Shown here piece after piece: positions 48,738 through 58,794 of a DNA stretch of 64,000 bases (positions are counted from its first letter, which is position 1; each line of letters starts with the position of its first letter). This DNA is from a phage. The position numbers and the translations under genes were made by a program. The notes beneath the pieces are model-generated. The model made no database searches and was not told the DNA's origin. It saw nothing but the letters and a program-made list of their open reading frames with translations. Location of the stretch: sequence record PZ402305.1; one strand, given 5' to 3'.

Positions 48738-48797
48738 TTGACGTTCGCCAGGTGGCGGCATAATATTTACCACGTAGGGCGGCAATGGTGCCGCTCA
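48738..48797 (+). promoter_or_regulatory. early promoter P1 + 5' stem-loop
   Basis: TTGACG-17-TAATAT-ttac-CACGTAGGGCGGCAATGGTGCCGCTCA; stem GCGGCA/TGCCGC. Confidence 0.7.
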
Positions 48798-48815
48798 CTA
48801 TTTGGAGTTAAGATC

Positions 48816-49013
48816 ATGGCAACATTGCACATTGTGGCGAAAGCTGGACAAATCAACGTAATAGTAAACGGTTTTACTGAGTTCAGTCATCCCCAGGATG
48901 ATCATGAAACGGTTTTATCTTTCATTGATTCACTGTTAGAAATGGGAGTAATTACAGAAGATCAGCATACTGCAAAATGCAAGCGCGTTAAGCAGATTGC
49001 AGGAATAGAATAA
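48816..49013 (+). CDS. early small protein (65 aa)
   Basis: ORF track start 48726 lies upstream of promoter P1; ATG at 48816 follows RBS ggag. Confidence 0.55.
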   Translation: MATLHIVAKAGQINVIVNGFTEFSHPQDDHETVLSFIDSLLEMGVITEDQHTAKCKRVKQIAGIE

Positions 49014-49018
49014 AAGTC

Positions 49019-49076
49019 TTGACAACAAGCCACAACCTGATAAGATGTATCACATAGGGGCGACAAGCGCCCCGCC
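49019..49076 (+). promoter_or_regulatory. early promoter P2 + 5' stem-loop
   Basis: TTGACA-16-TAAGAT-gtat-CACATAGGGGCGACAAGCGCCCCGCC. Confidence 0.7.
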
Positions 49077-49097
49077 TAACAGAAGAGAGAAATCATC

Positions 49098-49370
49098 ATG
49101 GCATCATATAGCGCAACAATGATCGTAACTGGCACCACTGGTAAACCGATGAGCGGTGGCGGATCTTTCGCTAATATCAATATTGACGGGCGTTTATCCC
49201 TGGACGCAGCGATTGCCATTGCACGGGAAACATTTAAGAAAGAATGTAATTTCAACAAGCAAGATTATCTCGGTTTCGCTATTGAAAAAACCGCGCGCTT
49301 TGTTGATTATAAAAGCCCGAAAATGGTTGATACTACACTAAAAGCGCAAGATGTAGCGTTTTTGCTTTAA
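49098..49370 (+). CDS. early small protein (90 aa)
   Basis: RBS agaagagag; follows P2. Confidence 0.6.
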   Translation: MASYSATMIVTGTTGKPMSGGGSFANINIDGRLSLDAAIAIARETFKKECNFNKQDYLGFAIEKTARFVDYKSPKMVDTTLKAQDVAFLL

Positions 49371-49373
49371 GGC

Positions 49374-49429
49374 TTGACATTAACGAATAATTTGTTAATA
49401 TGTTACATAAAGCGGGAATAGTTCCCGCT
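49374..49429 (+). promoter_or_regulatory. early promoter P3 + 5' stem-loop
   Basis: TTGACA-17-TAATAT-gtt-ACATAAAGCGGGAATAGTTCCCGCT. Confidence 0.7.
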
Positions 49430-49446
49430 ATTTGTAAGGTGGTAGA

Positions 49447-49704
49447 ATGTTTTACATCAAATTAAAAGGTCACGTGATCGCGTTCAAAGATAACGCTTTT
49501 TACAGATTAGCAAAATATGCGTTAATACATCCCCACTATGTTTATATAAGGGGGCGTGACGAAATAAATATTTTTGATCAAACAACATGCGAAAACATCG
49601 AGATCCGCAAGGTTGGCGTACGTGATTATCGTACATCTTTCTACCCTTGCAAGGATTCAGCAAGTCTTTTTAAGGTATGTCAATTGTTGAAAAAAGGTGG
49701 TTAA
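49447..49704 (+). CDS. early small protein (85 aa)
   Basis: RBS aaggtgg; follows P3. Confidence 0.6.
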   Translation: MFYIKLKGHVIAFKDNAFYRLAKYALIHPHYVYIRGRDEINIFDQTTCENIEIRKVGVRDYRTSFYPCKDSASLFKVCQLLKKGG

Positions 49705-49705
49705 T

Positions 49706-50263
49706 ATGGGCCGCGAATATGTGATCCAGTCTTGGGTAAAACATGAAGCAGATGATCCGCGCATCATTCCCGATCATCTTATCGATGAATCCACGGGATA
49801 TAGCGGTGAGCAAATAGGTAGCAGATTAGCACGTAGTAACGGCAACGTAAAAGCGCGTTATGTGCGCCCTGGCTGGCTGGCAAATGGTAACGCTGATTTA
49901 TCCAGTGCGGAAGATGCGAGCGACGGCGCGAAAGATAATCCTTTGTACAAAGTTGATCCGGCTTTTCGTGTCCTGGATGAATACCCCAGCAAGATAGCGG
50001 CGCTCGATCAGGCCCTGGAAAGTAAGCGCATCACCTGGACCGCTTACAACATGGCAAAAAACGTACTTGATGGTAAATTGATTCAAGCTGAAAGAAAATT
50101 AGCCAAAATTGCAGCCATAGCCCAGGAGGAAGACGAGGAGACAACGGAAGAGGAAGAGTACGAAGAGATCCCGCCGTTGTTGTGCGTTGATGCTTTTCCT
50201 GATTATCAGCCGACAGAGGAAGAAAAAAGGATCGCACTAGAAAACTTTGAAAATAGTCTTTGA
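49706..50263 (+). CDS. early acidic protein (185 aa)
   Basis: ATG at 49706 after RBS aaaaggtgg (ORF track GTG 49697); C-terminal third strongly acidic (EEDEETTEEEEYEE). Confidence 0.55.
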   Translation: MGREYVIQSWVKHEADDPRIIPDHLIDESTGYSGEQIGSRLARSNGNVKARYVRPGWLANGNADLSSAEDASDGAKDNPLYKVDPAFRVLDEYPSKIAALDQALESKRITWTAYNMAKNVLDGKLIQAERKLAKIAAIAQEEDEETTEEEEYEEIPPLLCVDAFPDYQPTEEEKRIALENFENSL

Positions 50264-50319
50264 CATATCGCCGCCACTGGCATAATATTTACCACGTAGG
50301 GCGGCAATGGTGCCGCTCA
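50259..50319 (+). promoter_or_regulatory. early promoter P4 + 5' stem-loop
   Basis: TTGACA overlapping preceding stop; CATAAT -10; stem-loop identical to P1. Confidence 0.7.
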
Positions 50320-50345
50320 TAGTGAAATTATGCAAGAGGCTTACA

Positions 50346-50441
50346 ATGATTAATAAAGAAAATAGCTTGACGGTTGGAACGATTAACGCTATCATTTTCG
50401 CCGTTCCATTTTGGGTTGTATTAGCGGCTATTATTTTCTAA
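50346..50441 (+). CDS. early hydrophobic micro-protein (31 aa)
   Basis: Not in ORF track (<60 aa); ATG after agagg; MINKENSLTVGTINAIIFAVPFWVVLAAIIF is a single TM helix; sits between P4 and P5. Confidence 0.35.
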   Translation: MINKENSLTVGTINAIIFAVPFWVVLAAIIF

Positions 50442-50451
50442 AAAAATATTC

Positions 50452-50512
50452 TTGACAACGTTTTTTAATCTGATAAGATGTATCACATAGGGCGGCGGAA
50501 TACTTCCCCGCC
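50452..50512 (+). promoter_or_regulatory. early promoter P5 + 5' stem-loop
   Basis: TTGACA-16-TAAGAT-gtat-CACATAGGGCGGCGGAATACTTCCCCGCC. Confidence 0.7.
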
Positions 50513-50533
50513 AAAACAAAAAAGGGTAACACA

Positions 50534-50896
50534 ATGAGCAAGCAAATCAATACTATCATGTTTAATCTGGTATCTTTCCGCGATGATATGAAAAATTTAC
50601 CACGTGAAACGGTTGATATTCATGTTTCAGCTTATCGCGCCCTTATTGATATGTTACCGCTAAAACGTGATCAACATGCCGCTAATATGATGCTTAATGC
50701 TATGCTTAAAAAGATGATTCAAACGGATCTTACTCTGGCGTATGAGTATCAAGGGCGCTTATATGCTACTTACAACAAAGCGGTACCTGGTCTGGGAAGT
50801 ACCGAAGAGTTGCACGGCTTAAACCTGGATCAAAACACTTGGGATAGTATGCGCCGCGTTATGGTATGGGCCGAAAGCGGTAAAATTTACGAATAA
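50534..50896 (+). CDS. early small protein (120 aa)
   Basis: RBS aaaggg; follows P5. Confidence 0.6.
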   Translation: MSKQINTIMFNLVSFRDDMKNLPRETVDIHVSAYRALIDMLPLKRDQHAANMMLNAMLKKMIQTDLTLAYEYQGRLYATYNKAVPGLGSTEELHGLNLDQNTWDSMRRVMVWAESGKIYE

Positions 50897-50902
50897 AAAC
50901 GG

Positions 50903-50959
50903 TTGACACTGTTTAAAATTCTGGTATAGTTTATCACGTAGGGCGGCAATGGTGCCGCC
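50903..50959 (+). promoter_or_regulatory. early promoter P6 + 5' stem-loop
   Basis: TTGACA-17-TATAGT-ttat-CACGTAGGGCGGCAATGGTGCCGCC. Confidence 0.7.
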
Positions 50960-50979
50960 AATAATAAAAGGTTAACATC

Positions 50980-51159
50980 ATGGCTATCATTGCAAAAACT
51001 GAGATTATAGGTTTAGATTCGATCCTCCTGGCTTATGAGGAAACTTTAAAAATGTATGTAGTGACCTATGGTGATTATGTGCGTGAATACGAATACATTG
51101 ATCTTGCTTTCGAATGTTACATTCGCCAGGTCAATAAAGCCTATAACGATTATCGTTAA
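50980..51159 (+). CDS. early small protein (59 aa)
   Basis: Not in ORF track; RBS aaaagg; ATG at 50980 follows P6. Confidence 0.45.
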   Translation: MAIIAKTEIIGLDSILLAYEETLKMYVVTYGDYVREYEYIDLAFECYIRQVNKAYNDYR

Positions 51160-51178
51160 AAGTTTTAGTCTTATACTA

Positions 51179-51230
51179 TTGACAATGAGTGATAGTATAA
51201 GCATAATAACTTTTATCGGGAATACTTCCC
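51179..51230 (+). promoter_or_regulatory. early promoter P7 + 5' stem-loop
   Basis: TTGACA-...-CATAAT-...-CGGGAATACTTCCC. Confidence 0.6.
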
Positions 51231-51256
51231 ACTAACCAAAAAGAGAGAGTGACACC

Positions 51257-51622
51257 ATGGCTATTAATATCAATGTTTCCGTTTATGCTACCCTGGCTGA
51301 CACGGCTAAAATTGAATTATCCAGCATTGAGGCGGTGCATATTAGCGCCCGTCGCTGGTTTCAACAGTCCTACGGTAACACATATTTTTCTTTAATAGTT
51401 GACGTTGAGATCGGCGGTAAACTGATCGAGGTGGTTAACGTTCCGTTTCAATATGGCTATGGTGATCATTTTGATACCGTCGCCCTGGAAGAATTTAGCA
51501 AGGTTATCAACCTTGAGGGCAAGGAATTTTCACGCGGCGCGTATCTTTCCCGTTTTTGCCGTGACAATGGGATCACTGTATACAGTCATGCAAGCGATGT
51601 AAAACGTAAAAAAGATTTATAA
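51257..51622 (+). CDS. early small protein (121 aa)
   Basis: RBS aagagagag; follows P7. Confidence 0.6.
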   Translation: MAININVSVYATLADTAKIELSSIEAVHISARRWFQQSYGNTYFSLIVDVEIGGKLIEVVNVPFQYGYGDHFDTVALEEFSKVINLEGKEFSRGAYLSRFCRDNGITVYSHASDVKRKKDL

Positions 51623-51627
51623 AAGTA

Positions 51628-51690
51628 TTGACAGCACGAATAAAAAGAGTAAACTGTATTACATAGAGAGCGGGAACACTTCCCGCCTCA
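51628..51690 (+). promoter_or_regulatory. early promoter P8 + 5' stem-loop
   Basis: TTGACA-16-TAAACT-gtatt-ACATAGAGAGCGGGAACACTTCCCGCCTCA. Confidence 0.7.
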
Positions 51691-51710
51691 CTGAAAAAGA
51701 GAGAAAAATC

Positions 51711-51950
51711 ATGGCTAAATCTAAAATGTACAACGGTCACAAAAACAAAACTCATTGGAATGTAAGCCTTTGGATTAATAACGATGAATCATTATATCGG
51801 TTGGCGAAAGAATTTATCGCCGCTAATACTAATCGTAATGATGCTGCGCGGGATATGATGCTTTTTCTGGAACAAACTGGACAAGATAAAACGCCAGACG
51901 GTTTCAAATATAGCACTACTGCGATCCGCGCCGCGATGGTTGGAATGTAA
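51711..51950 (+). CDS. early small protein (79 aa)
   Basis: RBS aaagagag; follows P8. Confidence 0.6.
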   Translation: MAKSKMYNGHKNKTHWNVSLWINNDESLYRLAKEFIAANTNRNDAARDMMLFLEQTGQDKTPDGFKYSTTAIRAAMVGM

Positions 51951-51959
51951 TAAAAACAG

Positions 51960-52019
51960 TTGACAACGTTTAAAATTAGTGTAAGATGTATCACATAGGG
52001 CGGGAAGTGGTTTCCCGCC
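51960..52019 (+). promoter_or_regulatory. early promoter P9 + 5' stem-loop
   Basis: TTGACA-16-TAAGAT-gtat-CACATAGGGCGGGAAGTGGTTTCCCGCC. Confidence 0.7.
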
Positions 52020-52041
52020 AACAACAGAGAGATTAAAGATT

Positions 52042-52269
52042 ATGGCTATCAATATTGTTCGCGTATCCGGCACCGTTGGCACTTCCCAGGTTATTGCAGT
52101 TGTAACAAACAAAAAGATTAATGATGTATGTGAGATCTTGAATAAGTGGGCTATTGCTAATTTTGGGGAATATGCAAGCGTCGAGTACATCGAATCCTAC
52201 CAGGTGCCAACCATCAGCCTAACCGATCTCAACGTTGATCGCCTGTTATGCCTGGATGAATTAATCTGA
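52042..52269 (+). CDS. early small protein (75 aa)
   Basis: RBS agagag; follows P9. Confidence 0.6.
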   Translation: MAINIVRVSGTVGTSQVIAVVTNKKINDVCEILNKWAIANFGEYASVEYIESYQVPTISLTDLNVDRLLCLDELI

Positions 52270-52278
52270 AAAAGATTG

Positions 52279-52337
52279 TTGACACGGGAAAGAAAAAGAG
52301 TAAACTATATTACGTAGGGCGGCAATGGTGCCGCTCA
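52279..52337 (+). promoter_or_regulatory. early promoter P10 + 5' stem-loop
   Basis: TTGACA-16-TAAACT-atat-TACGTAGGGCGGCAATGGTGCCGCTCA. Confidence 0.7.
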
Positions 52338-52359
52338 CAACAGAAGAGAGATTATCACG

Positions 52360-52572
52360 ATGGCTAATATCCGCACACTGTTAAAAAATGCAAAACAAGT
52401 TTTATTTTCTGATCACAATCATTTTAATAAAGATATTACAGGCGTGAAGAATATCAAAGATGTAAAAAGTGTTATGGGTATATATTGCAATGTTAAACGT
52501 GTTGGAACGTTCGGTGACAAGGTATTGTATCAATCAGGTGATTACAATTTTACTTTGACGATTATTTCATAA
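52360..52572 (+). CDS. early small protein (70 aa)
   Basis: RBS agaagagag; follows P10. Confidence 0.6.
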   Translation: MANIRTLLKNAKQVLFSDHNHFNKDITGVKNIKDVKSVMGIYCNVKRVGTFGDKVLYQSGDYNFTLTIIS

Positions 52573-52577
52573 AACGC

Positions 52578-52638
52578 TTGCAATACTGCAAAAATAAAGT
52601 AAACTGTATTACATCAAGGCGGGGAATGGTCCACCGCC
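52578..52638 (+). promoter_or_regulatory. early promoter P11 + 5' stem-loop
   Basis: TTGCAA-...-TAAACT-gtatt-ACATCAAGGCGGGGAATGGTCCACCGCC. Confidence 0.65.
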
Positions 52639-52662
52639 TAACAAAGAGAAGAGGAAAACATC

Positions 52663-52830
52663 ATGATTACTTTTACTACCCGTGAAGCCGCTCGCAACGT
52701 TGCACGTAAAGTTAACGCCGCCAACCTGGGTGCTACGCTTAAAGCCCCTGTAAAAGATGAATCAGGCAAATGGATCTTCCCTGGTCTGCGTCATGCTGAC
52801 AAGTTAGGTACTTTAAGCCTTAAAAAATAA
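52663..52830 (+). CDS. early small basic protein (55 aa)
   Basis: Not in ORF track; RBS agaggaaaa; follows P11. Confidence 0.45.
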   Translation: MITFTTREAARNVARKVNAANLGATLKAPVKDESGKWIFPGLRHADKLGTLSLKK

Positions 52831-52833
52831 TCG

Positions 52834-52871
52834 TTGACTTTTCGTTATAGCGCCTTATAATGGGCGCTATA
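52834..52871 (+). promoter_or_regulatory. early promoter P12 with -10 embedded in palindrome
   Basis: TTGACT then TATAGCGCC-TTATAAT-GGGCGCTATA perfect inverted repeat enclosing the TATAAT hexamer. Confidence 0.55.
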
Positions 52872-52908
52872 GAGAAGAGAAACCAATCACCAGAAAGAGA
52901 GAAAGAAA

Positions 52909-53127
52909 ATGGCAATCCGTAAAATTAAAGTTGTTTGCATTGAATCAACTGGTGGCGCGTTTGTAGTTGGTCAGAAGTATAATGCGGTTTTAATGGGCGT
53001 GGATTGGAAGGTTAAAGGTCTTGACGGTTACGAATACGGCACTACTCGCGGCTTGCGTGGTCGAATCGGATACGTGAGCTTTGACAACAAAGAAAAATTT
53101 GTTTTCGATACTGTTATGAGTAAATAG
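52909..53127 (+). CDS. early small protein (72 aa)
   Basis: RBS agagagaaag; follows P12. Confidence 0.6.
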   Translation: MAIRKIKVVCIESTGGAFVVGQKYNAVLMGVDWKVKGLDGYEYGTTRGLRGRIGYVSFDNKEKFVFDTVMSK

Positions 53128-53200
53128 CACGAATTGCTAAAAACTAATCTGCGAATTGCTGTAATATCAACTAATCGAAACACATAAAGAGAAAAACATC

Positions 53201-53422
53201 ATGATCACTTTCGCTATTGTCACCGTTGTCGCTGGTCAAGTTTACGTAAATGAGACATTTACTACAGAAGACAAAGCAGCAGGAGATATAACCGCCGTTT
53301 ACAACGAGTGCAAGGCAGTAGAAAGGATGTTAGCGCCTTGTATGCTAATGAGTGAACGCCAGGACGGGATAACAGTGTTTAGCAACATTGAAACAGGGTA
53401 CCAAATGGTAGTAACAAAATAA
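53201..53422 (+). CDS. early small protein (73 aa)
   Basis: RBS aaagagaaa; upstream promoter less clear (TTGCTA / TGTAATAT), no stem-loop. Confidence 0.55.
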   Translation: MITFAIVTVVAGQVYVNETFTTEDKAAGDITAVYNECKAVERMLAPCMLMSERQDGITVFSNIETGYQMVVTK

Positions 53423-53425
53423 AAC

Positions 53426-53483
53426 TTGACACAGATTTAATTTTCAGTAAACTGTTACACATAGGGCGGGAATAGTTCCCGCT
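53426..53483 (+). promoter_or_regulatory. early promoter P13 + 5' stem-loop
   Basis: TTGACA-...-TAAACT-gtta-CACATAGGGCGGGAATAGTTCCCGCT. Confidence 0.7.
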
Positions 53484-53500
53484 AAAAAGAGAGAAAGACC

Positions 53501-53854
53501 ATGAAAGCACAAAATGCAATTAAAGAGTACATCCTTGCCGCTATCGATTTTAATGATTATGGTATTACAACCGAAAAAGAGAAGATCGCGGAATTGATGC
53601 GCCGTTTTAATTCCGAGTACTGGTACCCTGATAATCAATCACGTTTTAATTATAGTATTGTTAAAGCACTTGCATCATGGTTACAAGGTTTGCCATCAGA
53701 CATTAATATCGCTTTCGAATATTGGGAAATTGATCGTTTGTTAACATCCTGGGGATACATTAAAGAGAATAGCAGCGATGATAAAATCCAACGAGAAAGG
53801 GAAAATTATTGGCTTTATATTGCAGGCGTGATCCTTGCTTGCTCTTATGAATGA
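53501..53854 (+). CDS. early small protein (117 aa)
   Basis: RBS aagagagaaag; follows P13. Confidence 0.6.
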   Translation: MKAQNAIKEYILAAIDFNDYGITTEKEKIAELMRRFNSEYWYPDNQSRFNYSIVKALASWLQGLPSDINIAFEYWEIDRLLTSWGYIKENSSDDKIQRERENYWLYIAGVILACSYE

Positions 53855-53860
53855 TAAACC

Positions 53861-53917
53861 TTGACAATTTTACAAAACAGCTTAAATTAATAATATAGCG
53901 GCAATGGTGCCGCTCAT
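53861..53917 (+). promoter_or_regulatory. early promoter P14 + 5' stem-loop
   Basis: TTGACA-16-TTAAAT-taatat-AGCGGCAATGGTGCCGCTCA. Confidence 0.65.
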
Positions 53918-53933
53918 ATAAAGAGGAAACAAA

Positions 53934-54080
53934 ATGAATACATCTAATCGCGCAGAAAAAATTCAATCTCCCAAGATCCGCAAGGCCTGGAACGAGGAAG
54001 TGATCCGCAAAGGCGACAAGCGTAATAAAACAAAGCGCGGGAAGAGTGACAAATATAATTGGATGGATTTAGAGGATTAA
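53934..54080 (+). CDS. early small basic protein (48 aa)
   Basis: Not in ORF track; RBS aagaggaaa; Lys/Arg-rich; followed by strong terminator. Confidence 0.4.
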   Translation: MNTSNRAEKIQSPKIRKAWNEEVIRKGDKRNKTKRGKSDKYNWMDLED

Positions 54081-54086
54081 CATAAC

Positions 54087-54114
54087 AAGGGCGCACCAAG
54101 CGCCCTTTCTTTTT
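54087..54114 (+). terminator. rho-independent terminator (copy 1)
   Basis: aaGGGCGCaccaaGCGCCCtttcttttt; identical core to terminator at 59172-59200. Confidence 0.8.
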
Positions 54115-54135
54115 ACATGTAGAGGATAAACAAAA

Positions 54136-54321
54136 ATGACTTTAAACGAGCTTAAAACAGCCTACAACGCAACGTTAAAAATAGCCGTGCGTTACCGTGA
54201 CGAATACGGTTTTATTGCGCAGGGCGTGATCCTGGGCTTTTCTGACGATGGTTTGATTTATGTTGATGCACATCACAACAAGGTTAAACCGGAAAACGTT
54301 ATCAGTATAAAATATCTTTAA
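54136..54321 (+). CDS. early small protein (61 aa)
   Basis: RBS agaggataaa. Confidence 0.5.
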   Translation: MTLNELKTAYNATLKIAVRYRDEYGFIAQGVILGFSDDGLIYVDAHHNKVKPENVISIKYL

Positions 54322-54327
54322 AAGTGG

Positions 54328-54388
54328 TTGACACCATAACCGGACCTGTTAAACTGTATTACATCAGGCGGGGGAATAGTTCCCCACC
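54328..54388 (+). promoter_or_regulatory. early promoter P15 + 5' stem-loop
   Basis: TTGACA-...-TAAACT-gtatt-ACATCAGGCGGGGGAATAGTTCCCCACC. Confidence 0.65.
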
Positions 54389-54407
54389 ATACAAAAAGGT
54401 AAATATT

Positions 54408-54614
54408 ATGATCACCGCAAAACAAGAAAAAATCATTATCGACGTTGCAGCCGTTGCCGCTATTGCTATTATTGGATCTTATTATGATACCCGTTTCCCG
54501 TCGGCTATGCATGAGGTCGCCGCCGTTGCATCAGTTGGCGTACTGTTTTACGTTGGTAAACGCTATTTATCACCAATGATTAACAAGCTGACACCGTGGA
54601 AAAATAAAGGTTGA
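54408..54614 (+). CDS. early small membrane protein (68 aa)
   Basis: ORF track start 54324 is upstream of promoter; ATG at 54408 after aaaaagg; hydrophobic helix VAAVAAIAIIGSYY. Confidence 0.5.
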   Translation: MITAKQEKIIIDVAAVAAIAIIGSYYDTRFPSAMHEVAAVASVGVLFYVGKRYLSPMINKLTPWKNKG

Positions 54615-54668
54615 TCCTGTTTTATATTGTGTTATAGTTATCGTGTAGGGCGGCAATGGTGCCGCGCC
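54611..54668 (+). promoter_or_regulatory. early promoter P16 + 5' stem-loop
   Basis: TTGATC-...-TATAGT-tatc-GTGTAGGGCGGCAATGGTGCCGCGCC. Confidence 0.6.
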
Positions 54669-54685
54669 CCTTTGAGGATGCAATC

Positions 54686-54970
54686 ATGAGTAAAGCTAAC
54701 ACCGTGCTAATGTTTTCCCTGATTAATGATCCCGCTTACTTGTCCAACATGACGCAGGAGGGTAACACATTAACGGCAACATTCACCAATAAGCTTGACC
54801 GAGTGATCATCATCTCACTGAAAACAGTTAGTAAAGGCTTTTACTCGTTAGCTTATCATTGGATCACTGATACCGATGAGACAAGCCAGGACTATAGCGC
54901 CCCTTTCCCTGAATCAATGGCACGGGAGATCATCGCCGCCGTTGTAAATGATGGTTTGTTTACTGCATAA
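54686..54970 (+). CDS. early small protein (94 aa)
   Basis: ORF track start 54656 overlaps stem-loop; ATG at 54686 after gaggatg. Confidence 0.5.
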   Translation: MSKANTVLMFSLINDPAYLSNMTQEGNTLTATFTNKLDRVIIISLKTVSKGFYSLAYHWITDTDETSQDYSAPFPESMAREIIAAVVNDGLFTA

Positions 54971-54985
54971 AAATTTAGAAAAGGC

Positions 54986-55042
54986 TTGCAATAATTTTGA
55001 GATAGTGTATATTTAATTCATAGGGCGGCGGGAATAGTTCCC
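54986..55042 (+). promoter_or_regulatory. early promoter P17 + 5' stem-loop
   Basis: TTGCAA-...-TATATT-taat-TCATAGGGCGGCGGGAATAGTTCCC. Confidence 0.6.
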
Positions 55043-55065
55043 AAAGCAAACGAGAGGATTACACG

Positions 55066-55185
55066 ATGAGCAAGTACACAGTAGAATACACGGTAGAGAA
55101 TCCGGCAGTATCCGAAGGTAAAAAGATGACATTTGCCATCAGTATAATCGCTTTCGTTGTCACTATCTTATCAATCATCTTATAA
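55066..55185 (+). CDS. early hydrophobic micro-protein (39 aa)
   Basis: Not in ORF track; RBS gagagg; C-terminal TM helix FAISIIAFVVTILSIIL. Confidence 0.35.
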   Translation: MSKYTVEYTVENPAVSEGKKMTFAISIIAFVVTILSIIL

Positions 55186-55195
55186 GGTGCACACC

Positions 55196-55357
55196 ATGAA
55201 AATAACAGACATTATCAAAGAGATCGCCCTTGCCGCTGGCGTTGAAGTCGAGGAAGTGATCGCGCTCAATCTTACAGAAAACGATCTGCGCAACTATGAA
55301 GCGGAAAGCGTGAAAGCAAGCGGCGCGGTCCTGGTATATGATCCGGCTAACAAGTAA
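55196..55357 (+). CDS. early small protein (53 aa)
   Basis: ORF track start 55157; ATG at 55196 after taaggtg. Confidence 0.45.
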   Translation: MKITDIIKEIALAAGVEVEEVIALNLTENDLRNYEAESVKASGAVLVYDPANK

Positions 55358-55366
55358 GGGGATAAC

Positions 55367-55477
55367 ATGAATCCGAAAGATATGCAAGCATGGAAAGGGT
55401 ACGACGATCTAAGCGCCTTGCGCAATAAGTCAAGCCGTAACCTTAGACGGTTGGAAGCAAAGAAAAAGAAAAAATAG
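55367..55477 (+). CDS. early small basic protein (36 aa)
   Basis: Not in ORF track; RBS aagggga; ends in KKKKK. Confidence 0.3.
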   Translation: MNPKDMQAWKGYDDLSALRNKSSRNLRRLEAKKKKK

Positions 55478-55478
55478 T

Positions 55479-55537
55479 TTGACAAGTCCGCGTAGTCTGA
55501 TAATATGTATCTTGTAGGGCGGCAATGGTGCCGCTCA
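55479..55537 (+). promoter_or_regulatory. early promoter P18 + 5' stem-loop
   Basis: TTGACA-17-TAATAT-gtat-CTTGTAGGGCGGCAATGGTGCCGCTCA. Confidence 0.7.
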
Positions 55538-55555
55538 CAAGAAGAGAGAAAAATC

Positions 55556-55840
55556 ATGAAAATTACAAAAAGCCTAACTAATTATGCAGCACGTCGCGGA
55601 TTATGTTTAACCGTTGAAAACTTAGGGAAAGAAGACTTTTTGTGTTTTTGGGAGCTTGAAAATGATTGCGAGTGGATGTTTTCTTATTCTATCTGCGAAG
55701 ATCAAAACGGTTGTTTGTTAACCTGGCGCGGTAATATCTATTTACCGGAAGAAATCAAAGAGGAACTACCAGGCACGATCATGACTGAGAAACAGCTTAA
55801 GGAAGTGATCAATTTTGTAGGGCAAAACATTAAAAAATAA
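55556..55840 (+). CDS. early small protein (94 aa)
   Basis: ORF track start 55505 is inside promoter; ATG at 55556 after agaagagagaaaa. Confidence 0.55.
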   Translation: MKITKSLTNYAARRGLCLTVENLGKEDFLCFWELENDCEWMFSYSICEDQNGCLLTWRGNIYLPEEIKEELPGTIMTEKQLKEVINFVGQNIKK

Positions 55841-55841
55841 T

Positions 55842-55907
55842 TTGACAGTAGGCAAACAACGTAGTAAAGTTTATTACATAGAGCGGCGGAATGGTCCACC
55901 GCTCACA
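55842..55907 (+). promoter_or_regulatory. early promoter P19 + 5' stem-loop
   Basis: TTGACA-...-TAAAGT-ttatt-ACATAGAGCGGCGGAATGGTCCACCGCTCA. Confidence 0.65.
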
Positions 55908-55925
55908 ACAGAAGAGAAACAAATC

Positions 55926-56096
55926 ATGATCCCGACTATGTTTTATGTATCGCGCAAAGGTCACAATATTTTTTGGTCTGAAGATTTAAATGAAGCTATG
56001 ACGTTTGCCCGTAATCGTGTTGCTATCGGTGGCGTTAACATCACCGTAACCGATGAAAATGGCATTGAATACTATAACGGCGACGATGAAGAATAA
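55926..56096 (+). CDS. early small protein (56 aa)
   Basis: ORF track start 55842 overlaps promoter; ATG at 55926 after agaagagaaac. Confidence 0.5.
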   Translation: MIPTMFYVSRKGHNIFWSEDLNEAMTFARNRVAIGGVNITVTDENGIEYYNGDDEE

Positions 56097-56101
56097 TTAA
56101 T

Positions 56102-56128
56102 GAGGCGGGGGGAGTATTCCCCGCCGTC
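56102..56128 (+). promoter_or_regulatory. promoter-less GC stem-loop (terminator/processing-site candidate)
   Basis: GAGGCGGGGGGAGTATTCCCCGCCGTC hairpin of the same type as the 5' stem-loops but without upstream TTGACA. Confidence 0.4.
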
Positions 56129-56174
56129 AATATGGCGGGGCAATAAGGCAACGCCCATTAATGAGGGTAAAATC

Positions 56175-56279
56175 ATGTTAGAGAAAATTTTCACGGTTGC
56201 AGTGGTTGGCCTGGCGTTATCGGTTGGAGTGGTTGCAACTATGGCTAACATGATCCTATCTTCCCACGGTATCGGTTAA
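56175..56279 (+). CDS. early hydrophobic micro-protein (34 aa)
   Basis: Not in ORF track; RBS gagggtaaa; MLEKIFTVAVVGLALSVGVVATMANMIL is a TM helix. Confidence 0.35.
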   Translation: MLEKIFTVAVVGLALSVGVVATMANMILSSHGIG

Positions 56280-56289
56280 GGTGAAACAA

Positions 56290-56505
56290 ATGATCACGAA
56301 CAAAACAGGCAAAACGGAATTTTTACGCGGCTTACAAGTTGGTAAGCCTGAGATCTGGCATTGCACGAAGTCCGCGCATAATGAAATGAAAGATTTCACC
56401 GCTACTTTACAACGTGTTAAAATATCTATTACACAGAAAAAAGCCTTGTTAGTAGTAGAAAACGAGATCCCACAAACTATTATTATTGTCGAGCGTACAG
56501 CATGA
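56290..56505 (+). CDS. early small protein (71 aa)
   Basis: ATG at 56290 after taaggtg (ORF track GTG 56281). Confidence 0.5.
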   Translation: MITNKTGKTEFLRGLQVGKPEIWHCTKSAHNEMKDFTATLQRVKISITQKKALLVVENEIPQTIIIVERTA

Positions 56506-56888
56506 AAACAGAAATCATTATTGAAATCATCAACGGCTATAAAGAAGCTTTTATTTTTGCTGAATCAGCAAGGGATCATGAAGGTAATTTTATTGATAAC
56601 TTAGACGATTATGATTTTTCTCCTAGCGCGGACGAACGGATCGCCCAGGATGTAACAGCCTTTATTAATGCTAATCTTGCCGCTATCTCTGAGGCAATGA
56701 GCGACGGCGCAACAGCCAACCAGATCGGGAATGATTTACATTTTACCCGTAACAGTCACGGCGTAGGCTTTTGGGATCGCCCTGAAATATACACCACTAA
56801 CACGGCGAACCGCCTAACCAATGCAGCTAAGTTTATGCCGAACGTGTCGGCTTACATTGGTGAAGATAATTTGATTTATATTGAATAA
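56502..56888 (+). CDS. early protein (128 aa)
   Basis: 4-nt overlap with upstream gene. Confidence 0.55.
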   Translation: MKTEIIIEIINGYKEAFIFAESARDHEGNFIDNLDDYDFSPSADERIAQDVTAFINANLAAISEAMSDGATANQIGNDLHFTRNSHGVGFWDRPEIYTTNTANRLTNAAKFMPNVSAYIGEDNLIYIE

Positions 56889-56894
56889 AAAGTA

Positions 56895-56953
56895 TTGACA
56901 CAGATCGCCAGTGTGCTAATATTTACCACGTAGGGCGGCAATGGTGCCGCTCC
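56895..56953 (+). promoter_or_regulatory. early promoter P20 + 5' stem-loop
   Basis: TTGACA-17-TAATAT-ttac-CACGTAGGGCGGCAATGGTGCCGCTCC. Confidence 0.7.
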
Positions 56954-56971
56954 CCGAAAAAGGTAAACATT

Positions 56972-57163
56972 ATGGAAACCATCTCCTACCTGGAATCGAA
57001 TAACATGTTTTTTGCGCCCGTTGATGAAATCATCGAAGCATTAAACAACGAGGAAGGGATCAAAGGTTTATCTTATAGCCAACTTTTAGGAATGGTTGCA
57101 GCAAATGAAGAGCTTGCTTACTATGTTGAAAATTTTGATGAAGCTGTAATCTTTACAAAATAA
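56972..57163 (+). CDS. early small acidic protein (63 aa)
   Basis: RBS aaaaagg; follows P20. Confidence 0.55.
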   Translation: METISYLESNNMFFAPVDEIIEALNNEEGIKGLSYSQLLGMVAANEELAYYVENFDEAVIFTK

Positions 57164-57166
57164 TCC

Positions 57167-57223
57167 TTGATCTAATCTCTTAGATAACTTATATTTAATG
57201 CGTAGGGCGGCAATGGTGCCGCC
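57167..57223 (+). promoter_or_regulatory. early promoter P21 + 5' stem-loop
   Basis: TTGATC-...-TATATT-taa-TGCGTAGGGCGGCAATGGTGCCGCC. Confidence 0.6.
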
Positions 57224-57241
57224 GATAATGAGGAAAGTAAA

Positions 57242-57541
57242 ATGGAAACTATCGCTATTGTTACCGTAGAAAAACTGGTTGTTGGTGATGTATTCGCGTT
57301 AATGGTGCCTAACAGCAGCAAACTGGGCGCTTATGAAGTAATGGATCATAAAAATGAATCATTTGGCGACGGTTGCACAATGGCGGTAAAATCTTTAAAG
57401 GATGGAATCATCCGCCAGGCTAACTGGCACAAAGGGAATCAAGTCGGTTTAATATCAGCTAATTTCTTGCCAGAAGAGCAAACGTTAGACCAACTATCAG
57501 GCGGTAAGACGTTAGCCGAGCTACTGGAAACAGCGATCTAA
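57242..57541 (+). CDS. early small protein (99 aa)
   Basis: RBS gaggaaag; follows P21. Confidence 0.6.
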   Translation: METIAIVTVEKLVVGDVFALMVPNSSKLGAYEVMDHKNESFGDGCTMAVKSLKDGIIRQANWHKGNQVGLISANFLPEEQTLDQLSGGKTLAELLETAI

Positions 57542-57549
57542 TCAACAAA

Positions 57550-57565
57550 GGGGCGGCAACGCCCC
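57550..57565 (+). promoter_or_regulatory. promoter-less GC stem-loop
   Basis: GGGGCGgcaaCGCCCC perfect hairpin between genes, no T-run. Confidence 0.4.
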
Positions 57566-57585
57566 ACATCAGAAAGGAAAAGATT

Positions 57586-57822
57586 ATGAGTATTGCAACA
57601 GTATTAAACGCCGTTAAAACCGCTGAATCATCCGGCTTGCATGTTGAGCTTATAGATCAACCAGGTGGCGATCTCCTTGTCCAGGTTTACCCGCCGAAAG
57701 TAGGGGATGATCATTATTGGTGCTATTCTGATACGTTCGAACAAGTAGACACGAAAGCGATCACGGCTTTTATTTTAAAAGCTATTGAAGAAAATAACTT
57801 TCATTATAACATCAATCAATAA
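57586..57822 (+). CDS. early small protein (78 aa)
   Basis: RBS aaaggaaaag. Confidence 0.55.
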   Translation: MSIATVLNAVKTAESSGLHVELIDQPGGDLLVQVYPPKVGDDHYWCYSDTFEQVDTKAITAFILKAIEENNFHYNINQ

Positions 57823-57879
57823 ACTTTAAGCAGGGGGCGGTAACGCCCTATTAAACGCAATAGGAAGAGGATAGAAAGC

Positions 57880-58170
57880 ATGAAAAAGATGATCGCAGTA
57901 GTTGCCCTGGTTGTTGGTATTAACGCGCCTGTAATGGCTAATGATTTGCCTGAATCCATCGCGTTAACCGATATCAACGCGGTAAACCGGATCGGCGTTA
58001 ATTATCGCCTATGCCTTGCCGCTAAAACTTTCCAGGACGGCACGACAGAATACCACGGATTCGAGGGTGTCCGGTGCGGTGAGCTTGCACGCGACCTTAA
58101 GGAAGATCCAGACCTTGAGGCCATACCGATGACCGTAAACGGTAAAGCTTACGTAAACCGCCAACAATGA
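57880..58170 (+). CDS. early secreted small protein (96 aa)
   Basis: Signal peptide MKKMIAVVALVVGINAPVMA; RBS aggaagagg. Confidence 0.55.
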   Translation: MKKMIAVVALVVGINAPVMANDLPESIALTDINAVNRIGVNYRLCLAAKTFQDGTTEYHGFEGVRCGELARDLKEDPDLEAIPMTVNGKAYVNRQQ

Positions 58171-58181
58171 GAAAGGTAATC

Positions 58182-58409
58182 ATGACAATGGGGATCATAG
58201 TAGCAACGCTGGCGCTGATCCCCTTCCTGGTTGAATATGTGCTGATTAGTGTTGTCCTGGTAGTCAGTGACTTATTGGAAACGGTTGGCACCTGGGAGCA
58301 GGGGAAGATAATCACCGGACGACCCCGCTATATATTGATAGCTAACATCTATCAAACAACAAAACATCAAAGAGATAAACTATCAAATCTTTACAATCCT
58401 ACCTATTGA
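58182..58409 (+). CDS. early small membrane protein (75 aa)
   Basis: ATG at 58182 after gagaaagg (ORF track 58167); two hydrophobic helices. Confidence 0.45.
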   Translation: MTMGIIVATLALIPFLVEYVLISVVLVVSDLLETVGTWEQGKIITGRPRYILIANIYQTTKHQRDKLSNLYNPTY

Positions 58410-58464
58410 CACCGGATCACGCTTACATTATCATTTATCACGTAGGGCGGGAATGTTTCCCGCC
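58406..58464 (+). promoter_or_regulatory. early promoter P22 + 5' stem-loop
   Basis: TTGACA-...-CATTAT-...-CACGTAGGGCGGGAATGTTTCCCGCC. Confidence 0.65.
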
Positions 58465-58482
58465 TGATTTAGGAGTCATATC

Positions 58483-58716
58483 ATGATCGAACAAATTAAA
58501 AGCACTAAACCAAATGTTAACGGTAATGTTTCTCACTTTATCGGGGATAATGAAAGAGGTACACCGTACGCCGCCGTAACCGTTCAACCGAACGGGGATT
58601 ATTGGTTTACCGTGTACGGATCTTACTCTTTTGGACGTTCGGCACATGATAAGATCTTGCAAGTGGTTAAGCCTACTGGGAAGAATATCACAGCAGAAAA
58701 ATTTTATAAAAAATAA
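58483..58716 (+). CDS. early small protein (77 aa)
   Basis: RBS taggag; follows P22. Confidence 0.6.
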   Translation: MIEQIKSTKPNVNGNVSHFIGDNERGTPYAAVTVQPNGDYWFTVYGSYSFGRSAHDKILQVVKPTGKNITAEKFYKK

Positions 58717-58727
58717 CTTGCTTTATA

Positions 58728-58777
58728 GCTCCTGTTAACTTATAGTTATTGCGTAGGGCGAGCAATACAGCAAGCCC
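58728..58777 (+). promoter_or_regulatory. early promoter P23 + variant 5' stem-loop
   Basis: TTGCTT-...-TATAGT-tatt-GCGTAGGGCGAGCAATACAGCAAGCCC. Confidence 0.5.
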
Positions 58778-58794
58778 ACAAAGAGGAAAAGAAG

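What the first reader, a model, noticed from the sequence alone, without database searches (positions are those of the whole stretch)
48771..58777. The 5' stem-loop is conserved as structure, not sequence
Variants include GGGCGGCAATGGTGCCGCT, GGGCGGGAATAGTTCCCGCT, GGGCGGGAAGTGGTTTCCCGCC, GGCGGGGAATGGTCCACCGCC and GGGGCGACAAGCGCCCC. Stem positions change in pairs that preserve Watson-Crick pairing, while the upstream context YACRTAG and the loop region (A/G)T(G/A)GT are relatively fixed. That argues for selection on an RNA hairpin at the very 5' end of each mRNA. Established knowledge is that 5'-terminal hairpins protect E. coli mRNAs from RppH/RNase E 5'-end-dependent decay; the element could equally be a binding site for a phage or host protein or a processing site.
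Basis: partly seen in the sequence, partly recalled or inferred. Interest (0 to 1): 0.8.

Follow-up and report, generated by a model that had tools for sequence, protein, structure and literature searches.

The report
Promoter-plus-hairpin cassettes before phage early genes
About 23 tiny early genes of this phAPEC8-like coliphage each sit behind the same compact cassette (strong host-type promoter, then a G+C hairpin a few bases into the transcript, then a ribosome site); the hairpin is kept as a structure while its sequence changes, and the cassettes are also the places where related phages swap genes.

Summary
The window comes from a Phapecoctavirus, 96-97% identical to Escherichia phage tuntematon. 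Between 48.7 and 58.8 kb on the + strand, 23 intergenic gaps carry one cassette. It has an A-rich tract, a near-consensus sigma-70 promoter, 9-11 nt (often YACRTAG), a G+C hairpin of -11 to -15 kcal/mol, a purine-rich open leader with a Shine-Dalgarno, and ATG.

Hairpins this stable occur in only 1.4% of 30-nt windows. Stems covary well beyond shuffled and slid controls. The architecture recurs with unrelated stems and loops in phi92, FV3 (rV5-like), PVP-SE1 and SSBI34.

None of the hairpins has a U-tract, so they are not canonical terminators.

- Gene indels between relatives have crossovers inside the hairpin, and orthologous genes carry different hairpin alleles.
- Promoterless hairpins are conserved at some junctions.
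- One cassette has its hairpin over the -10 hexamer.

The closest known thing is therefore the PeSL (promoter-early stem-loop) cassette of T4-like phages, here with the hairpin moved into the transcribed leader.

A 5'-end mRNA-protecting role is plausible but unproven. The predicted start leaves 3-4 unpaired nucleotides, which is borderline. I rate it a new variant of a known kind, of moderate interest.

The parts
48738..48818 (+). Cassette 1: TTGACG-17-TAATAT, hairpin 48777-48796 (GGGCGGCAATGGTGCCGCTC), ATG 48816
   Evidence: dG -12.9, 10 nt after the -10 hexamer
49019..49100 (+). Cassette 2: TTGACA-16-TAAGAT, hairpin 49057-49073 (GGGGCGACAAGCGCCCC), ATG 49098
   Evidence: The orthologous gene carries other hairpin alleles in phi92 and tuntematon.
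49374..49449 (+). Cassette 3: hairpin 49411-49429 (AGCGGGAATAGTTCCCGCT), ATG 49447
50260..50348 (+). Cassette 4: hairpin 50299-50318 (type A). Likely start codon ATG 50346, for a 31-aa ORF.
   Evidence: The start codon is inferred from the SD AAGAGG and from the tuntematon annotation.
50452..50536 (+). Cassette 5: hairpin 50491-50512 (GGCGGCGGAATACTTCCCCGCC), ATG 50534
50903..50982 (+). Cassette 6: hairpin 50942-50959 (GGCGGCAATGGTGCCGCC), ATG 50980
51179..51259 (+). Cassette 7: TTGACA-17-CATAAT, weak hairpin 51218-51230 (GGGAATACTTCCC, -4.0), ATG 51257
   Evidence: This is a decayed copy.
51628..51713 (+). Cassette 8: hairpin 51666-51689 (GAGAGCGGGAACACTTCCCGCCTC), ATG 51711
   Evidence: Orthologues differ only in the loop, CAC versus TAG.
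51960..52044 (+). Cassette 9: hairpin 51999-52019 (GGCGGGAAGTGGTTTCCCGCC), ATG 52042
52279..52362 (+). Cassette 10: hairpin 52317-52336 (type A), ATG 52360
52578..52665 (+). Cassette 11: TTGCAA-16-TAAACT, hairpin 52617-52639 with a bulged A, ATG 52663
   Evidence: The phi92 orthologue has a perfect 9-bp stem, AGGCGGTGG/CCACCGCCT.
52834..52911 (+). Cassette 12: TTGACT-16-TATAAT. The hairpin 52848-52869 (ATAGCGCC-TTATAATG-GGCGCTAT) has the -10 hexamer in its loop. ATG 52909.
   Evidence: This is the geometry reported for RB49 PeSLs. The hairpin cannot form in the cassette's own transcript.
53426..53503 (+). Cassette 13: hairpin 53465-53483 (GGCGGGAATAGTTCCCGCT), ATG 53501
53861..53936 (+). Cassette 14: hairpin core 53898-53915 (AGCGGCAATGGTGCCGCT), ATG 53934
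54328..54410 (+). Cassette 15: hairpin 54367-54388 (GGCGGGGGAATAGTTCCCCACC, with a C.A mismatch), ATG 54408
   Evidence: The tuntematon orthologue has lost one G and one C from opposite arms.
54611..54680 (+). Cassette 16: TTGATC-16-TATAGT, hairpin 54648-54667, ATG 54678
54986..55068 (+). Cassette 17: TTGCAA-16-TATATT, hairpin core 55030-55042 (GGGAATAGTTCCC), ATG 55066
   Evidence: The outer stem has been lost.
55479..55558 (+). Cassette 18: hairpin core 55517-55536 (type A), ATG 55556
   Evidence: Orthologues carry GAGCGGGGAAATGGTTTCCCCGCC.
55842..55928 (+). Cassette 19: hairpin 55881-55904 (GAGCGGCGGAATGGTCCACCGCTC), ATG 55926
56104..56155 (+). Two hairpins without a promoter (56104-56125 and 56134-56155) ahead of ATG 56175
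   Evidence: Tuntematon has an extra ORF and a promoter between the two hairpins, so this is a deletion bounded by them.
56895..56974 (+). Cassette 20: hairpin core 56933-56952 (type A), ATG 56972
   Evidence: This is the left partner of a cassette-bounded indel.
57167..57244 (+). Cassette 21: TTGATC-17-TATATT, hairpin 57206-57223, ATG 57242
   Evidence: This is the right partner of the indel. Tuntematon has a single chimeric cassette here.
57550..57565 (+). Promoterless hairpin GGGGCGGCAACGCCCC, between the stop codon at 57541 and ATG 57586
   Evidence: The same gene has a promoter plus hairpin in phi92.
57834..57849 (+). Promoterless hairpin GGGGCGGTAACGCCCT ahead of ATG 57880
   Evidence: It is kept at the orthologous junction in tuntematon, PD211 and FV3.
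58406..58485 (+). Cassette 22: hairpin 58445-58465 (GGGCGGGAATGTTTCCCGCCT), ATG 58483
58718..58797 (+). Cassette 23: TTGCTT-17-TATAGT, hairpin 58756-58777 (GGGCGAGCAATACAGCAAGCCC), ATG 58795
54087..54112 (+). True intrinsic terminator inside the array (GGGCGCACCAAGCGCCC followed by TTTCTTTTT)
   Evidence: It serves as a contrast with the U-less cassette hairpins.
59172..59200 (+). True intrinsic terminator closing the array
48627..48705 (-). Divergent cassette: TTGCTA-17-TATCAT, hairpin 48652-48667 (GCGCCAACCAGGGCGC), ATG 48629
   Evidence: The same architecture with an unrelated stem, conserved in phi92 and WPEC1.
26803..26883 (-). Isolated cassette: TTGACA-16-TAAGAT, hairpin 26825-26843 (GCGGGGAGTGGTTCCCCGC). 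It drives a TerC-family gene.

Best explanation
The feature is a family of repeated early-gene expression cassettes in a phAPEC8-like coliphage.

Shown from sequence and comparison:
- Each cassette has an A-rich upstream tract and a near-consensus sigma-70 promoter.
- The promoter is followed by 9-11 nt, then a G+C stem-loop whose 5' arm is purine-rich.
- After the stem-loop comes an unstructured purine-rich leader with a Shine-Dalgarno, then the start codon of a small ORFan.
- The stem-loop is under structural constraint.
- The cassettes are the crossover points for gene gain, loss and leader swapping among related phages.

Inferred:
- Host RNA polymerase starts at the R of CACRTAG. Every early mRNA then begins pppR-U-A(-G) followed at once by the hairpin.
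- The hairpin acts in RNA as a 5'-proximal protective and insulating element. It leaves only a 3-4 nt single-stranded 5' end, with a pyrimidine at position 2, which RppH disfavours. This slows 5'-end-dependent attack by RppH and RNase E, and it keeps the leader and SD free of upstream pairing.
- On read-through transcripts the same hairpin would serve as a 3' barrier for the upstream cistron. That would explain why it persists where the promoter has been lost.

In short, it works like a T4-type PeSL cassette whose stem-loop has been moved from the promoter into the transcribed leader.
For: - Cassette anatomy and fixed spacing. The 22 nt upstream of the -35 hexamer is 76% A+T, and the leader is 73% purine.
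- Occupancy: essentially every strong promoter in 48.7-58.8 kb carries a hairpin of -11 to -15 kcal/mol. The background rate is 1.4%.
- Leader folds: a hairpin at nt 3/4 to about 25, with the SD and AUG left open. z-scores are -2.2 to -5.0.
- Covariation exceeds shuffled and slid controls.
- The same architecture, with unrelated stems and loops, occurs at the same offset in phi92, FV3, PVP-SE1 and SSBI34.
- Orientation and sense-strand bias: G-C 205 against C-G 60, A-U 66 against U-A 5, and G.U 13 against U.G 0. Sense folds are more stable than antisense in 34 of 44 hairpins, p=0.004.
- Point events between orthologues keep the stem: a paired G/C deletion, C-to-T changes giving G.U, G.U-to-G-C changes, and loop-only changes.
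- Crossover inside the hairpin, and cassette-bounded indels.
- Background literature: a 5'-terminal stem-loop blocks RppH, and RppH disfavours a pyrimidine at position 2 (PMC8833179).
- The PeSL precedent (PMC2839356 and PMC4122927).
Against: - No transcription start site, half-life or termination data exist for this phage group. The 5' position rests on promoter geometry alone.
- With 3-4 unpaired nucleotides the hairpin is at or beyond the limit for blocking RppH and RNase E, which need two and prefer three or more.
- An internal simple stem-loop gives negligible protection against RNase E scanning (PMC11194081).
- Promoterless hairpins are conserved, and one hairpin spans the -10 hexamer. 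The structure is therefore kept even where it cannot be 5'-terminal on a primary transcript.
- A recurrent C.A mismatch (GGCGG...CCACC) would be a G.U pair on the other strand.
- The covariation alignments were centred on each sequence's own predicted loop, and the hairpins were chosen by sense-strand energy. Both choices bias the tests towards the structure.
- Part of the stem diversity is allele swapping, not independent events.
Confidence: 0.5

Rival explanations
1. The hairpins are terminators or attenuators, or purely 3'-end barriers, for transcription coming from the upstream cassette. This is the role proposed for PeSL stem-loops. Their position just after the next promoter would then be only a matter of compaction.
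For: - The PeSL stem-loop of RB49 reduced downstream lacZ about as much as rrnB T1.
- Hairpins persist at junctions that have lost the promoter, and at 57834 this holds across subfamilies.
- The hairpin of cassette 52834 spans the -10 hexamer, so it can only form in read-through RNA.
- Every intergenic gap longer than about 40 nt in the array has a hairpin.
Against: - None of the cassette hairpins is followed by a U-tract. The scan finds only 54087 and 59172 as terminators on the + strand.
- An efficient terminator at +4 to +25 would also abort the cassette's own transcript.
- The offset from the -10 hexamer stays at 8-12 nt in distant phages while the sequence changes. A pure upstream-gene element would not need this.
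Confidence: 0.2
2. The element is a protein-binding site. It could be an operator for a phage or host repressor that shuts off the early promoters. It could instead be a nut/boxB-like RNA site: a linear box (YACRTAG) plus a hairpin with a conserved loop that loads a regulator onto each early transcript.
For: - In this genome YACRTAG/RTAG and the loop AAT(G/A)GT recur in most copies.
- The position at +1 to +25 is where operators and nut or put sites lie. This last point is from established knowledge of lambda and HK022, not tested here.
Against: - Within one genome the arms differ in sequence and length, with total hairpin lengths of 17 to 24 nt. A dimeric DNA binder could not read them all.
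- The arms are strongly asymmetric, purine on the 5' side and pyrimidine on the 3' side.
- The loops are not kept in FV3, PVP-SE1 or SSBI34.
- Similarity within the genome is explained by cassette exchange.
Confidence: 0.1
3. The hairpin has no function in RNA. On this view it is a DNA-level palindrome carried along in a repeat that spreads and homogenises by recombination. It is kept because the repeat promotes modular shuffling, or is simply selfish.
For: - The crossover in tuntematon maps inside CGTAGGGCGGCAATGGTGCCGC.
- Orthologous genes carry different hairpin alleles.
- Type A is present in about 10 near-identical copies.
Against: - Stems covary across alleles and across subfamilies.
- G.U pairs and purine/pyrimidine arm asymmetry are strand-specific.
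- A compensatory paired deletion and loop-only substitutions occur between orthologues.
- The architecture survives where sequence homology is gone, as in PVP-SE1.
Confidence: 0.15

Closest known systems
PeSL (promoter-early stem-loop) cassettes of T4-like phages RB49/phi1, PST/T4 and nt-1/KVP40 (Arbiol et al. 2010, PMC2839356; Comeau et al. 2014, PMC4122927)
   Same: - A repeated intergenic unit made of an AT-rich tract, a near-consensus sigma-70 early promoter, a stable stem-loop with a G-run arm and a C-run arm, an SD and a start codon.
- It flanks small ORFans in a hyperplastic early region.
- Indels and replacements between close relatives are bounded by the units, with the crossover inside the stem-loop.
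   Different: - A different phage lineage: Stephanstirmvirinae and Vequintavirinae, not T4-like.
- In PeSLs the stem-loop lies upstream of the promoter, between the -35 and -10 hexamers, or over the -10 hexamer, so it is not in the cassette's own transcript. Here 22 of 23 cassettes have it 9-11 nt downstream of the -10 hexamer, inside the transcribed leader. Only cassette 52834 has the RB49 geometry.
- Terminator activity and mini-circles have not been tested here.
5'-terminal stabilising stem-loops of E. coli mRNAs, such as ompA and papA (Emory, Bouvet and Belasco 1992; cited in PMC3997798)
   Same: - A sequence-independent hairpin close to the 5' end, followed by an open leader.
- The expected effect is reduced access for RppH and RNase E.
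   Different: - The predicted single-stranded 5' segment is 3-4 nt. That is at or above the length at which protection is lost.
- The start site is unmapped.
- The element is multiplied about 23 times in one genome and also occurs without a promoter.
Rho-independent (intrinsic) terminators
   Same: A G+C-rich hairpin of 6-9 bp in an intergenic space.
   Different: There is no U-tract. The two real terminators in the array, at 54087 and 59172, have a different stem and a T-run.
Lambda nut (boxA plus the boxB hairpin) and HK022 put sites
   Same: A short linear motif followed by a small hairpin, just downstream of early promoters.
   Different: - The loop and the linear motif are not conserved across relatives.
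- There are about 23 copies rather than 2.
- No antiterminator protein was sought or found, so this comparison rests on recollection only.

Membership tests
PeSL cassette | Repeated intergenic motif containing a near-consensus sigma-70 early promoter | tested here: met
   23 promoters match 9-11 of the 12 consensus positions, most with TTGACA.
PeSL cassette | [quoted passage not shown] | tested here: met
   The 22 nt upstream is 76% A+T (47% A), against 61% for the whole window.
PeSL cassette | Stable stem-loop with a G-rich arm followed by a C-rich arm | tested here: met
   dG is -11 to -15 kcal/mol. G-C pairs number 205 against 60 C-G.
PeSL cassette | Stem-loop placed upstream of the promoter, inside it, or over its -10 hexamer, so it is not in the cassette's own transcript | tested here: not met
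   22 of 23 hairpins start 9-11 nt downstream of the -10 hexamer. Only 52848-52869 spans the -10 hexamer (compare).
PeSL cassette | SD and start codon of a small ORFan at the 3' end, in a hyperplastic region | tested here: met
   The gap from hairpin to ATG is 10-27 nt and contains an SD. None of the 9 ORFs scanned from the early region (8 array ORFs plus the divergent 88-aa ORF) has a Pfam hit. Relatives annotate all of these genes as hypothetical.
PeSL cassette | Indels or replacements between close relatives are bounded by the motif, with the crossover in or next to the stem-loop | tested here: met
   ORF 56972-57163 lies between two cassettes here, whereas tuntematon has one chimeric cassette. 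Leader and hairpin alleles are swapped on orthologous genes.
PeSL cassette | The stem-loop terminates or attenuates transcription, and mini-circle formation occurs | not testable with these tools
   This needs reporter assays and inverse PCR.
PeSL cassette | The host genome is a T4-like myovirus | tested here: not met
   The window is 96-97% identical to Phapecoctavirus genomes of the Stephanstirmvirinae.
5'-terminal mRNA stabiliser hairpin (ompA type) | The hairpin begins within about 0-2 nt of the 5' end of the transcript | tested here: inconclusive
   The start site is unmapped. Promoter geometry predicts 3-4 unpaired nt. RppH and RNase E need two and prefer three or more.
5'-terminal mRNA stabiliser hairpin (ompA type) | Structure matters, not sequence | tested here: met
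   Covariation exceeds the controls. Unrelated stems sit at the same offset in other subfamilies.
5'-terminal mRNA stabiliser hairpin (ompA type) | Removing the hairpin shortens mRNA half-life in an RppH/RNase E-dependent way | not testable with these tools
   This is an experiment.
Intrinsic terminator | A G+C hairpin immediately followed by a U-tract | tested here: not met
   No cassette hairpin passes the scan on the + strand. Only 54087 and 59172 do.
Any Rfam family | A match at the gathering score | tested here: not met
   There are 0 matches in the 64-kb window.

The most novel reading that the evidence does not exclude
The hairpin, together with its fixed pppR-U-A 5' end, is a 'self' mark. 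It exempts the phage's early mRNAs from an RNase E-dependent host mRNA shut-off that the phage itself triggers. rV5-type phages encode an Srd-like protein. The link from Srd to RNase E in T4 is from my own knowledge. If this reading is right, the roughly 23-fold repeated structure would be a dedicated viral mRNA-immunity element rather than a generic stabiliser.
Probability: 0.1. Interest if true: 0.7.

Novelty: new variant of a known kind. Interest (0 to 1): 0.4.

Why it matters
- It extends the PeSL idea of mobile promoter/stem-loop cassettes that both express and shuffle ORFans. PeSLs were known from T4-like phages; this places them in two other large groups of enterobacterial myoviruses, the Stephanstirmvirinae and the Vequintavirinae.
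- The stem-loop can sit inside the transcript, which changes what it can be doing.
- One genome offers about 23 natural variants of a promoter-proximal hairpin. That is a ready-made series for testing how close and how strong a 5' hairpin must be to protect an E. coli mRNA.
- For annotators of these therapy-relevant phages, the cassette marks early transcription units and true start codons. It also explains mosaic breakpoints.

Tried and rejected
- Rfam at gathering thresholds gave no match.
- A plain MAFFT alignment of 32 leaders followed by RNAalifold gave zero predicted pairs. Stems differ in length, so the registers shift. This reflects the alignment, not absence of structure.
- Padding sequences with N to force a structural alignment failed, because MAFFT shifted rows. 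A hand-typed set with unequal lengths was also shifted. Centring equal-length slices on each loop worked.
- Covariance model R1, built from 9 type-A seeds, finds all + strand copies in the array. However, it treats the inner stems of other alleles as loop insertions. Its alignments were therefore not used for pair counts.
- Literature searches for this element in phAPEC8, rV5, PVP-SE1 and phi92 papers found nothing. The PVP-SE1 and phi92 J Virol papers are not held. Prior mention there cannot be excluded.
- The GenBank annotations of phi92, PVP-SE1, FV3 and tuntematon show promoters or ribosome-binding sites at most, never the hairpins.
- RNase III site: rejected. Stems of 6-9 bp are far shorter than the roughly 20 bp that the enzyme needs (established knowledge).
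- N4-type DNA hairpin promoter: rejected. Each hairpin follows a complete sigma-70 promoter.

Full report
**What the window is.** The region 48.7-56.7 kb is 96-97% identical over 99% of its length to Escherichia phage tuntematon, Mt1B1_P17 and other Phapecoctavirus genomes (Stephanstirmvirinae). In those records the region is a run of about 30 'hypothetical protein' genes. None of the nine ORFs I scanned from this region has a Pfam match.

**Checking the observation.** I defined promoters by their -35 and -10 hexamers only and then looked for the best single hairpin in the next 40-45 nt. On that basis, 22 promoters between 48738 and 58718 on the + strand carry a hairpin. Most are -11 to -15 kcal/mol, and two decayed copies are at -4 and -6. 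The core stem starts 9-11 nt after the -10 hexamer.
- A 23rd cassette (52834) has its hairpin across the -10 hexamer.
- Two further copies lie on the minus strand. One is divergent from the array (48705 to 48627). The other is isolated at 26883 to 26803, ahead of a TerC-family gene.
- Only 1.4% of 30-nt windows in the 64-kb sequence fold at or below -10 kcal/mol.
- Individual leaders, folded from the predicted start to the AUG, give z-scores of -2.2 to -5.0. Each shows the same picture: a hairpin at nt 3/4 to about 25, then an open SD and AUG.
- Exact YACRTAG is present in 12 cassettes. RTAG is the better-conserved core.

**Anatomy of the cassette.** Reading 5' to 3':
- The stop codon of the upstream ORF lies inside an A-rich tract (76% A+T).
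- The promoter is TTGACA, 16 or 17 nt, then TAnnnT, with an upstream TG in about nine copies.
- About 10 nt separate the -10 hexamer from the hairpin.
- The hairpin is followed by 10-27 nt of leader (52% A, 73% purine) that contains the SD.
- The unit ends at the ATG.

The scan for intrinsic terminators finds none of the cassette hairpins on the + strand. It does find two genuine terminators, at 54087 and 59172 (GGGCGCACCAAGCGCCC followed by a T-run).

**Structure, not sequence.** I collected 56 promoter-linked hairpins (44 unique). They came from the window, phi92, WPEC1, SSBI34, FV3 and PVP-SE1.
- In raw arms anchored on the loop, 82.8% of positions pair, against 57.9 +/- 1.7% after column shuffling (0/1000). 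There are 82 double-sided changes against 28.7 +/- 4.2.
- With the pair-counting tool on gapless slices centred on the loop, 27 odd-loop hairpins give 91.2% paired against 70.4 +/- 2.1%. They give 41 double-sided cells against 15.6 +/- 2.7, and a covariation score of 0.559 against 0.214. All are 0/500, and slid partners give 37-60%.
- Fifteen even-loop hairpins give 80% against 60.8 +/- 2.6%, and 19 against 7.2 +/- 2.0 double-sided cells.

Caveats:
- Each slice was centred on that sequence's own predicted loop.
- The hairpins were chosen by folding energy.
- The sequences are related to one another.

The stronger argument is occupancy and position. In FV3 and PVP-SE1 the stems and loops are unrelated. 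Examples are GGGGCAAACGTCTTGCCCC, GGGCCAAAAGGCCC, GCCGGGGACGCGCCCCGGC and GGCCGGGGATCGCCCCCGGTC. They still begin 8-11 nt after a sigma-70 -10 hexamer and are followed by an 'ACA...' purine leader and an SD.

**RNA or DNA?** The arms are strongly asymmetric: G-C 205 against C-G 60, A-U 66 against U-A 5, and G.U 13 against U.G 0. The sense strand folds better than the antisense in 34 of 44 unique hairpins (mean difference -0.85 kcal/mol, Wilcoxon p=0.004). That comparison is biased by selecting hairpins on sense-strand energy.

Between orthologues I see four kinds of change that keep the stem:
- loop-only changes (ATGG/ATAG, CAC/TAG);
- C-to-T changes that create G.U pairs;
- G.U-to-G-C changes;
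- one paired deletion of a G and a C from opposite arms (54367-54388 against tuntematon).

Against this, a recurrent C.A mismatch (GGCGG...CCACC) would be a G.U pair on the other strand. On balance the sense-strand RNA is the selected form. A symmetric DNA operator is unlikely, because arm sequence and hairpin length (17-24 nt in total) differ within one genome.

**The cassettes as recombination sites.** Collinear blocks against tuntematon break at the cassettes.
- ORF 56972-57163 is flanked here by cassettes 56895 and 57167. Tuntematon has no such ORF and carries a single chimeric cassette. Its promoter side matches 56895 and its post-hairpin leader matches 57167. The crossover therefore lies within the shared CGTAGGGCGGCAATGGTGCCGC.
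- At 56104-56155 the window has two hairpins back to back, where tuntematon has hairpin, ORF, promoter, hairpin.
- Against phi92, gene order differs and the block ends overlap on a cassette.
- Orthologous genes (91-98% identical coding sequence) carry different hairpin alleles in different phages. The gene starting at 49098 has GGGGCGACAAGCGCCCC here, GGGCGGCAATAGTGCCGCTC in phi92 and GGGCGGGAAGTGGTTTCCCGCTC in tuntematon.

This is the behaviour described for PeSLs in RB49/phi1, including a crossover localised within the stem-loop. Part of the 'paired variation' in the array is therefore exchange of pre-existing alleles, not local compensatory mutation.

**Facts that do not fit a purely 5'-terminal role.**
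- Hairpins without any promoter sit between a stop codon and the next SD at 57550 and 57834. They are kept at the orthologous junctions. The 57834 hairpin is kept even in FV3, in a shifted register, while the gene after 57550 has a promoter plus hairpin in phi92.
- Cassette 52834 has the -10 hexamer in the loop of its hairpin. That hairpin can form only in read-through RNA or in DNA, which is the RB49 PeSL geometry.

**Mechanism.** *Shown:* the architecture, the structural constraint, the sense bias and the recombination role.

*Inferred:* the start site. The Y(-1)R(+1) rule and the usual 7-8 nt distance from the -10 hexamer put +1 at the R of CACRTAG. The 5' end would then be pppR-U-A(-G) ahead of the stem.

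E. coli RppH and RNase E need at least two unpaired 5' nucleotides and prefer three or more. A 5'-terminal stem-loop blocks RppH, and RppH favours a purine at position 2 (PMC8833179). The predicted 3-4 nt tail is therefore borderline for protection, although its invariant U at position 2 is the disfavoured kind. A simple hairpin placed internally gives negligible protection against RNase E scanning (PMC11194081).

My best reading, at about 50% confidence, is as follows:
- The hairpin is a 5'-proximal protective and insulating element of each early mRNA.
- It doubles as a 3' barrier on read-through transcripts.
- The homology of the whole cassette drives modular shuffling.

Rivals:
- an attenuator or 3' element for upstream transcription only (0.2);
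- a protein-binding site (0.1);
- a non-functional recombination repeat (0.15).

**Comparison with what is known.** The element passes every sequence-level PeSL feature I could test except two. The stem-loop is downstream of the -10 hexamer rather than upstream of or inside the promoter, and the phage is not T4-like.
- It is not an intrinsic terminator and matches no Rfam family.
- I found no description of it in the searchable literature or in the GenBank annotations of phi92, PVP-SE1, FV3 or tuntematon.
- The PVP-SE1 and phi92 genome papers are not held, so an earlier mention cannot be excluded.

**Verdict.** This is a new variant of a known kind: a PeSL-like cassette with a transcribed hairpin, shared by the Stephanstirmvirinae and the Vequintavirinae. 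Interest is moderate (0.4). It is unlikely to overturn anything. It does offer a clean natural system for testing rules of 5'-hairpin protection, and a practical marker for early transcription units and mosaic breakpoints in these phages.

Noticed in passing
window 48027-48103 (three copies), 59407-59425, 60275-60293, 60454-60472: A 19-bp palindromic, Fur-box-like repeat (AATGATAATNATTCTCATT) brackets the early-gene array on both sides. At up to 3 mismatches it gives 11 strand-matches, against 0.21 expected. The best match to the E. coli Fur-box consensus is 48082-48100, with 3 mismatches. Tuntematon annotates it only as 'repeat_region'.
   Followed up: partly
window 59200-60810: About 1.6 kb with no ORF longer than about 50 aa. 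It is A-rich and lies between the array's terminator and the next + strand gene block. It contains several CACRTAG words and two of the Fur-box-like repeats. The rV5 paper also mentions a 'non-coding' box in its map.
   Followed up: no
window 25831-26883 (-): A lone copy of the promoter-hairpin cassette lies outside the array. It drives a 324-aa TerC-family integral membrane protein (Pfam PF03741, E=3e-40).
   Followed up: partly
window 52848-52869: One cassette has its hairpin (ATAGCGCC-TTATAATG-GGCGCTAT) wrapped around the -10 hexamer. This is the geometry reported for RB49 PeSLs and differs from the other 22.
   Followed up: partly
window 56131-56290 versus L006 (FV3, Vequintavirus): FV3 carries a cassette plus the start of a gene that is 95% identical to this Phapecoctavirus segment. 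The rest of the two genomes is far more divergent. This suggests a recent exchange between subfamilies.
   Followed up: partly
L008 (MG065645 'Campylobacter phage A145'); hits H12 and H18: Records named as Campylobacter, Acinetobacter and Klebsiella phages are 79-97% identical to these coliphages and are classified in the Stephanstirmvirinae. The host labels are probably wrong, or the host range is unusually broad.
   Followed up: no
window 57880-58170 (+): This 96-aa ORF begins MKKMIAVVALVVGINAPVMA, which is typical of a signal peptide. A nearby phi92 gene, gp239, is annotated with a predicted signal peptide, although I did not establish that it is the orthologue. It may be a small exported early protein.
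   Followed up: no
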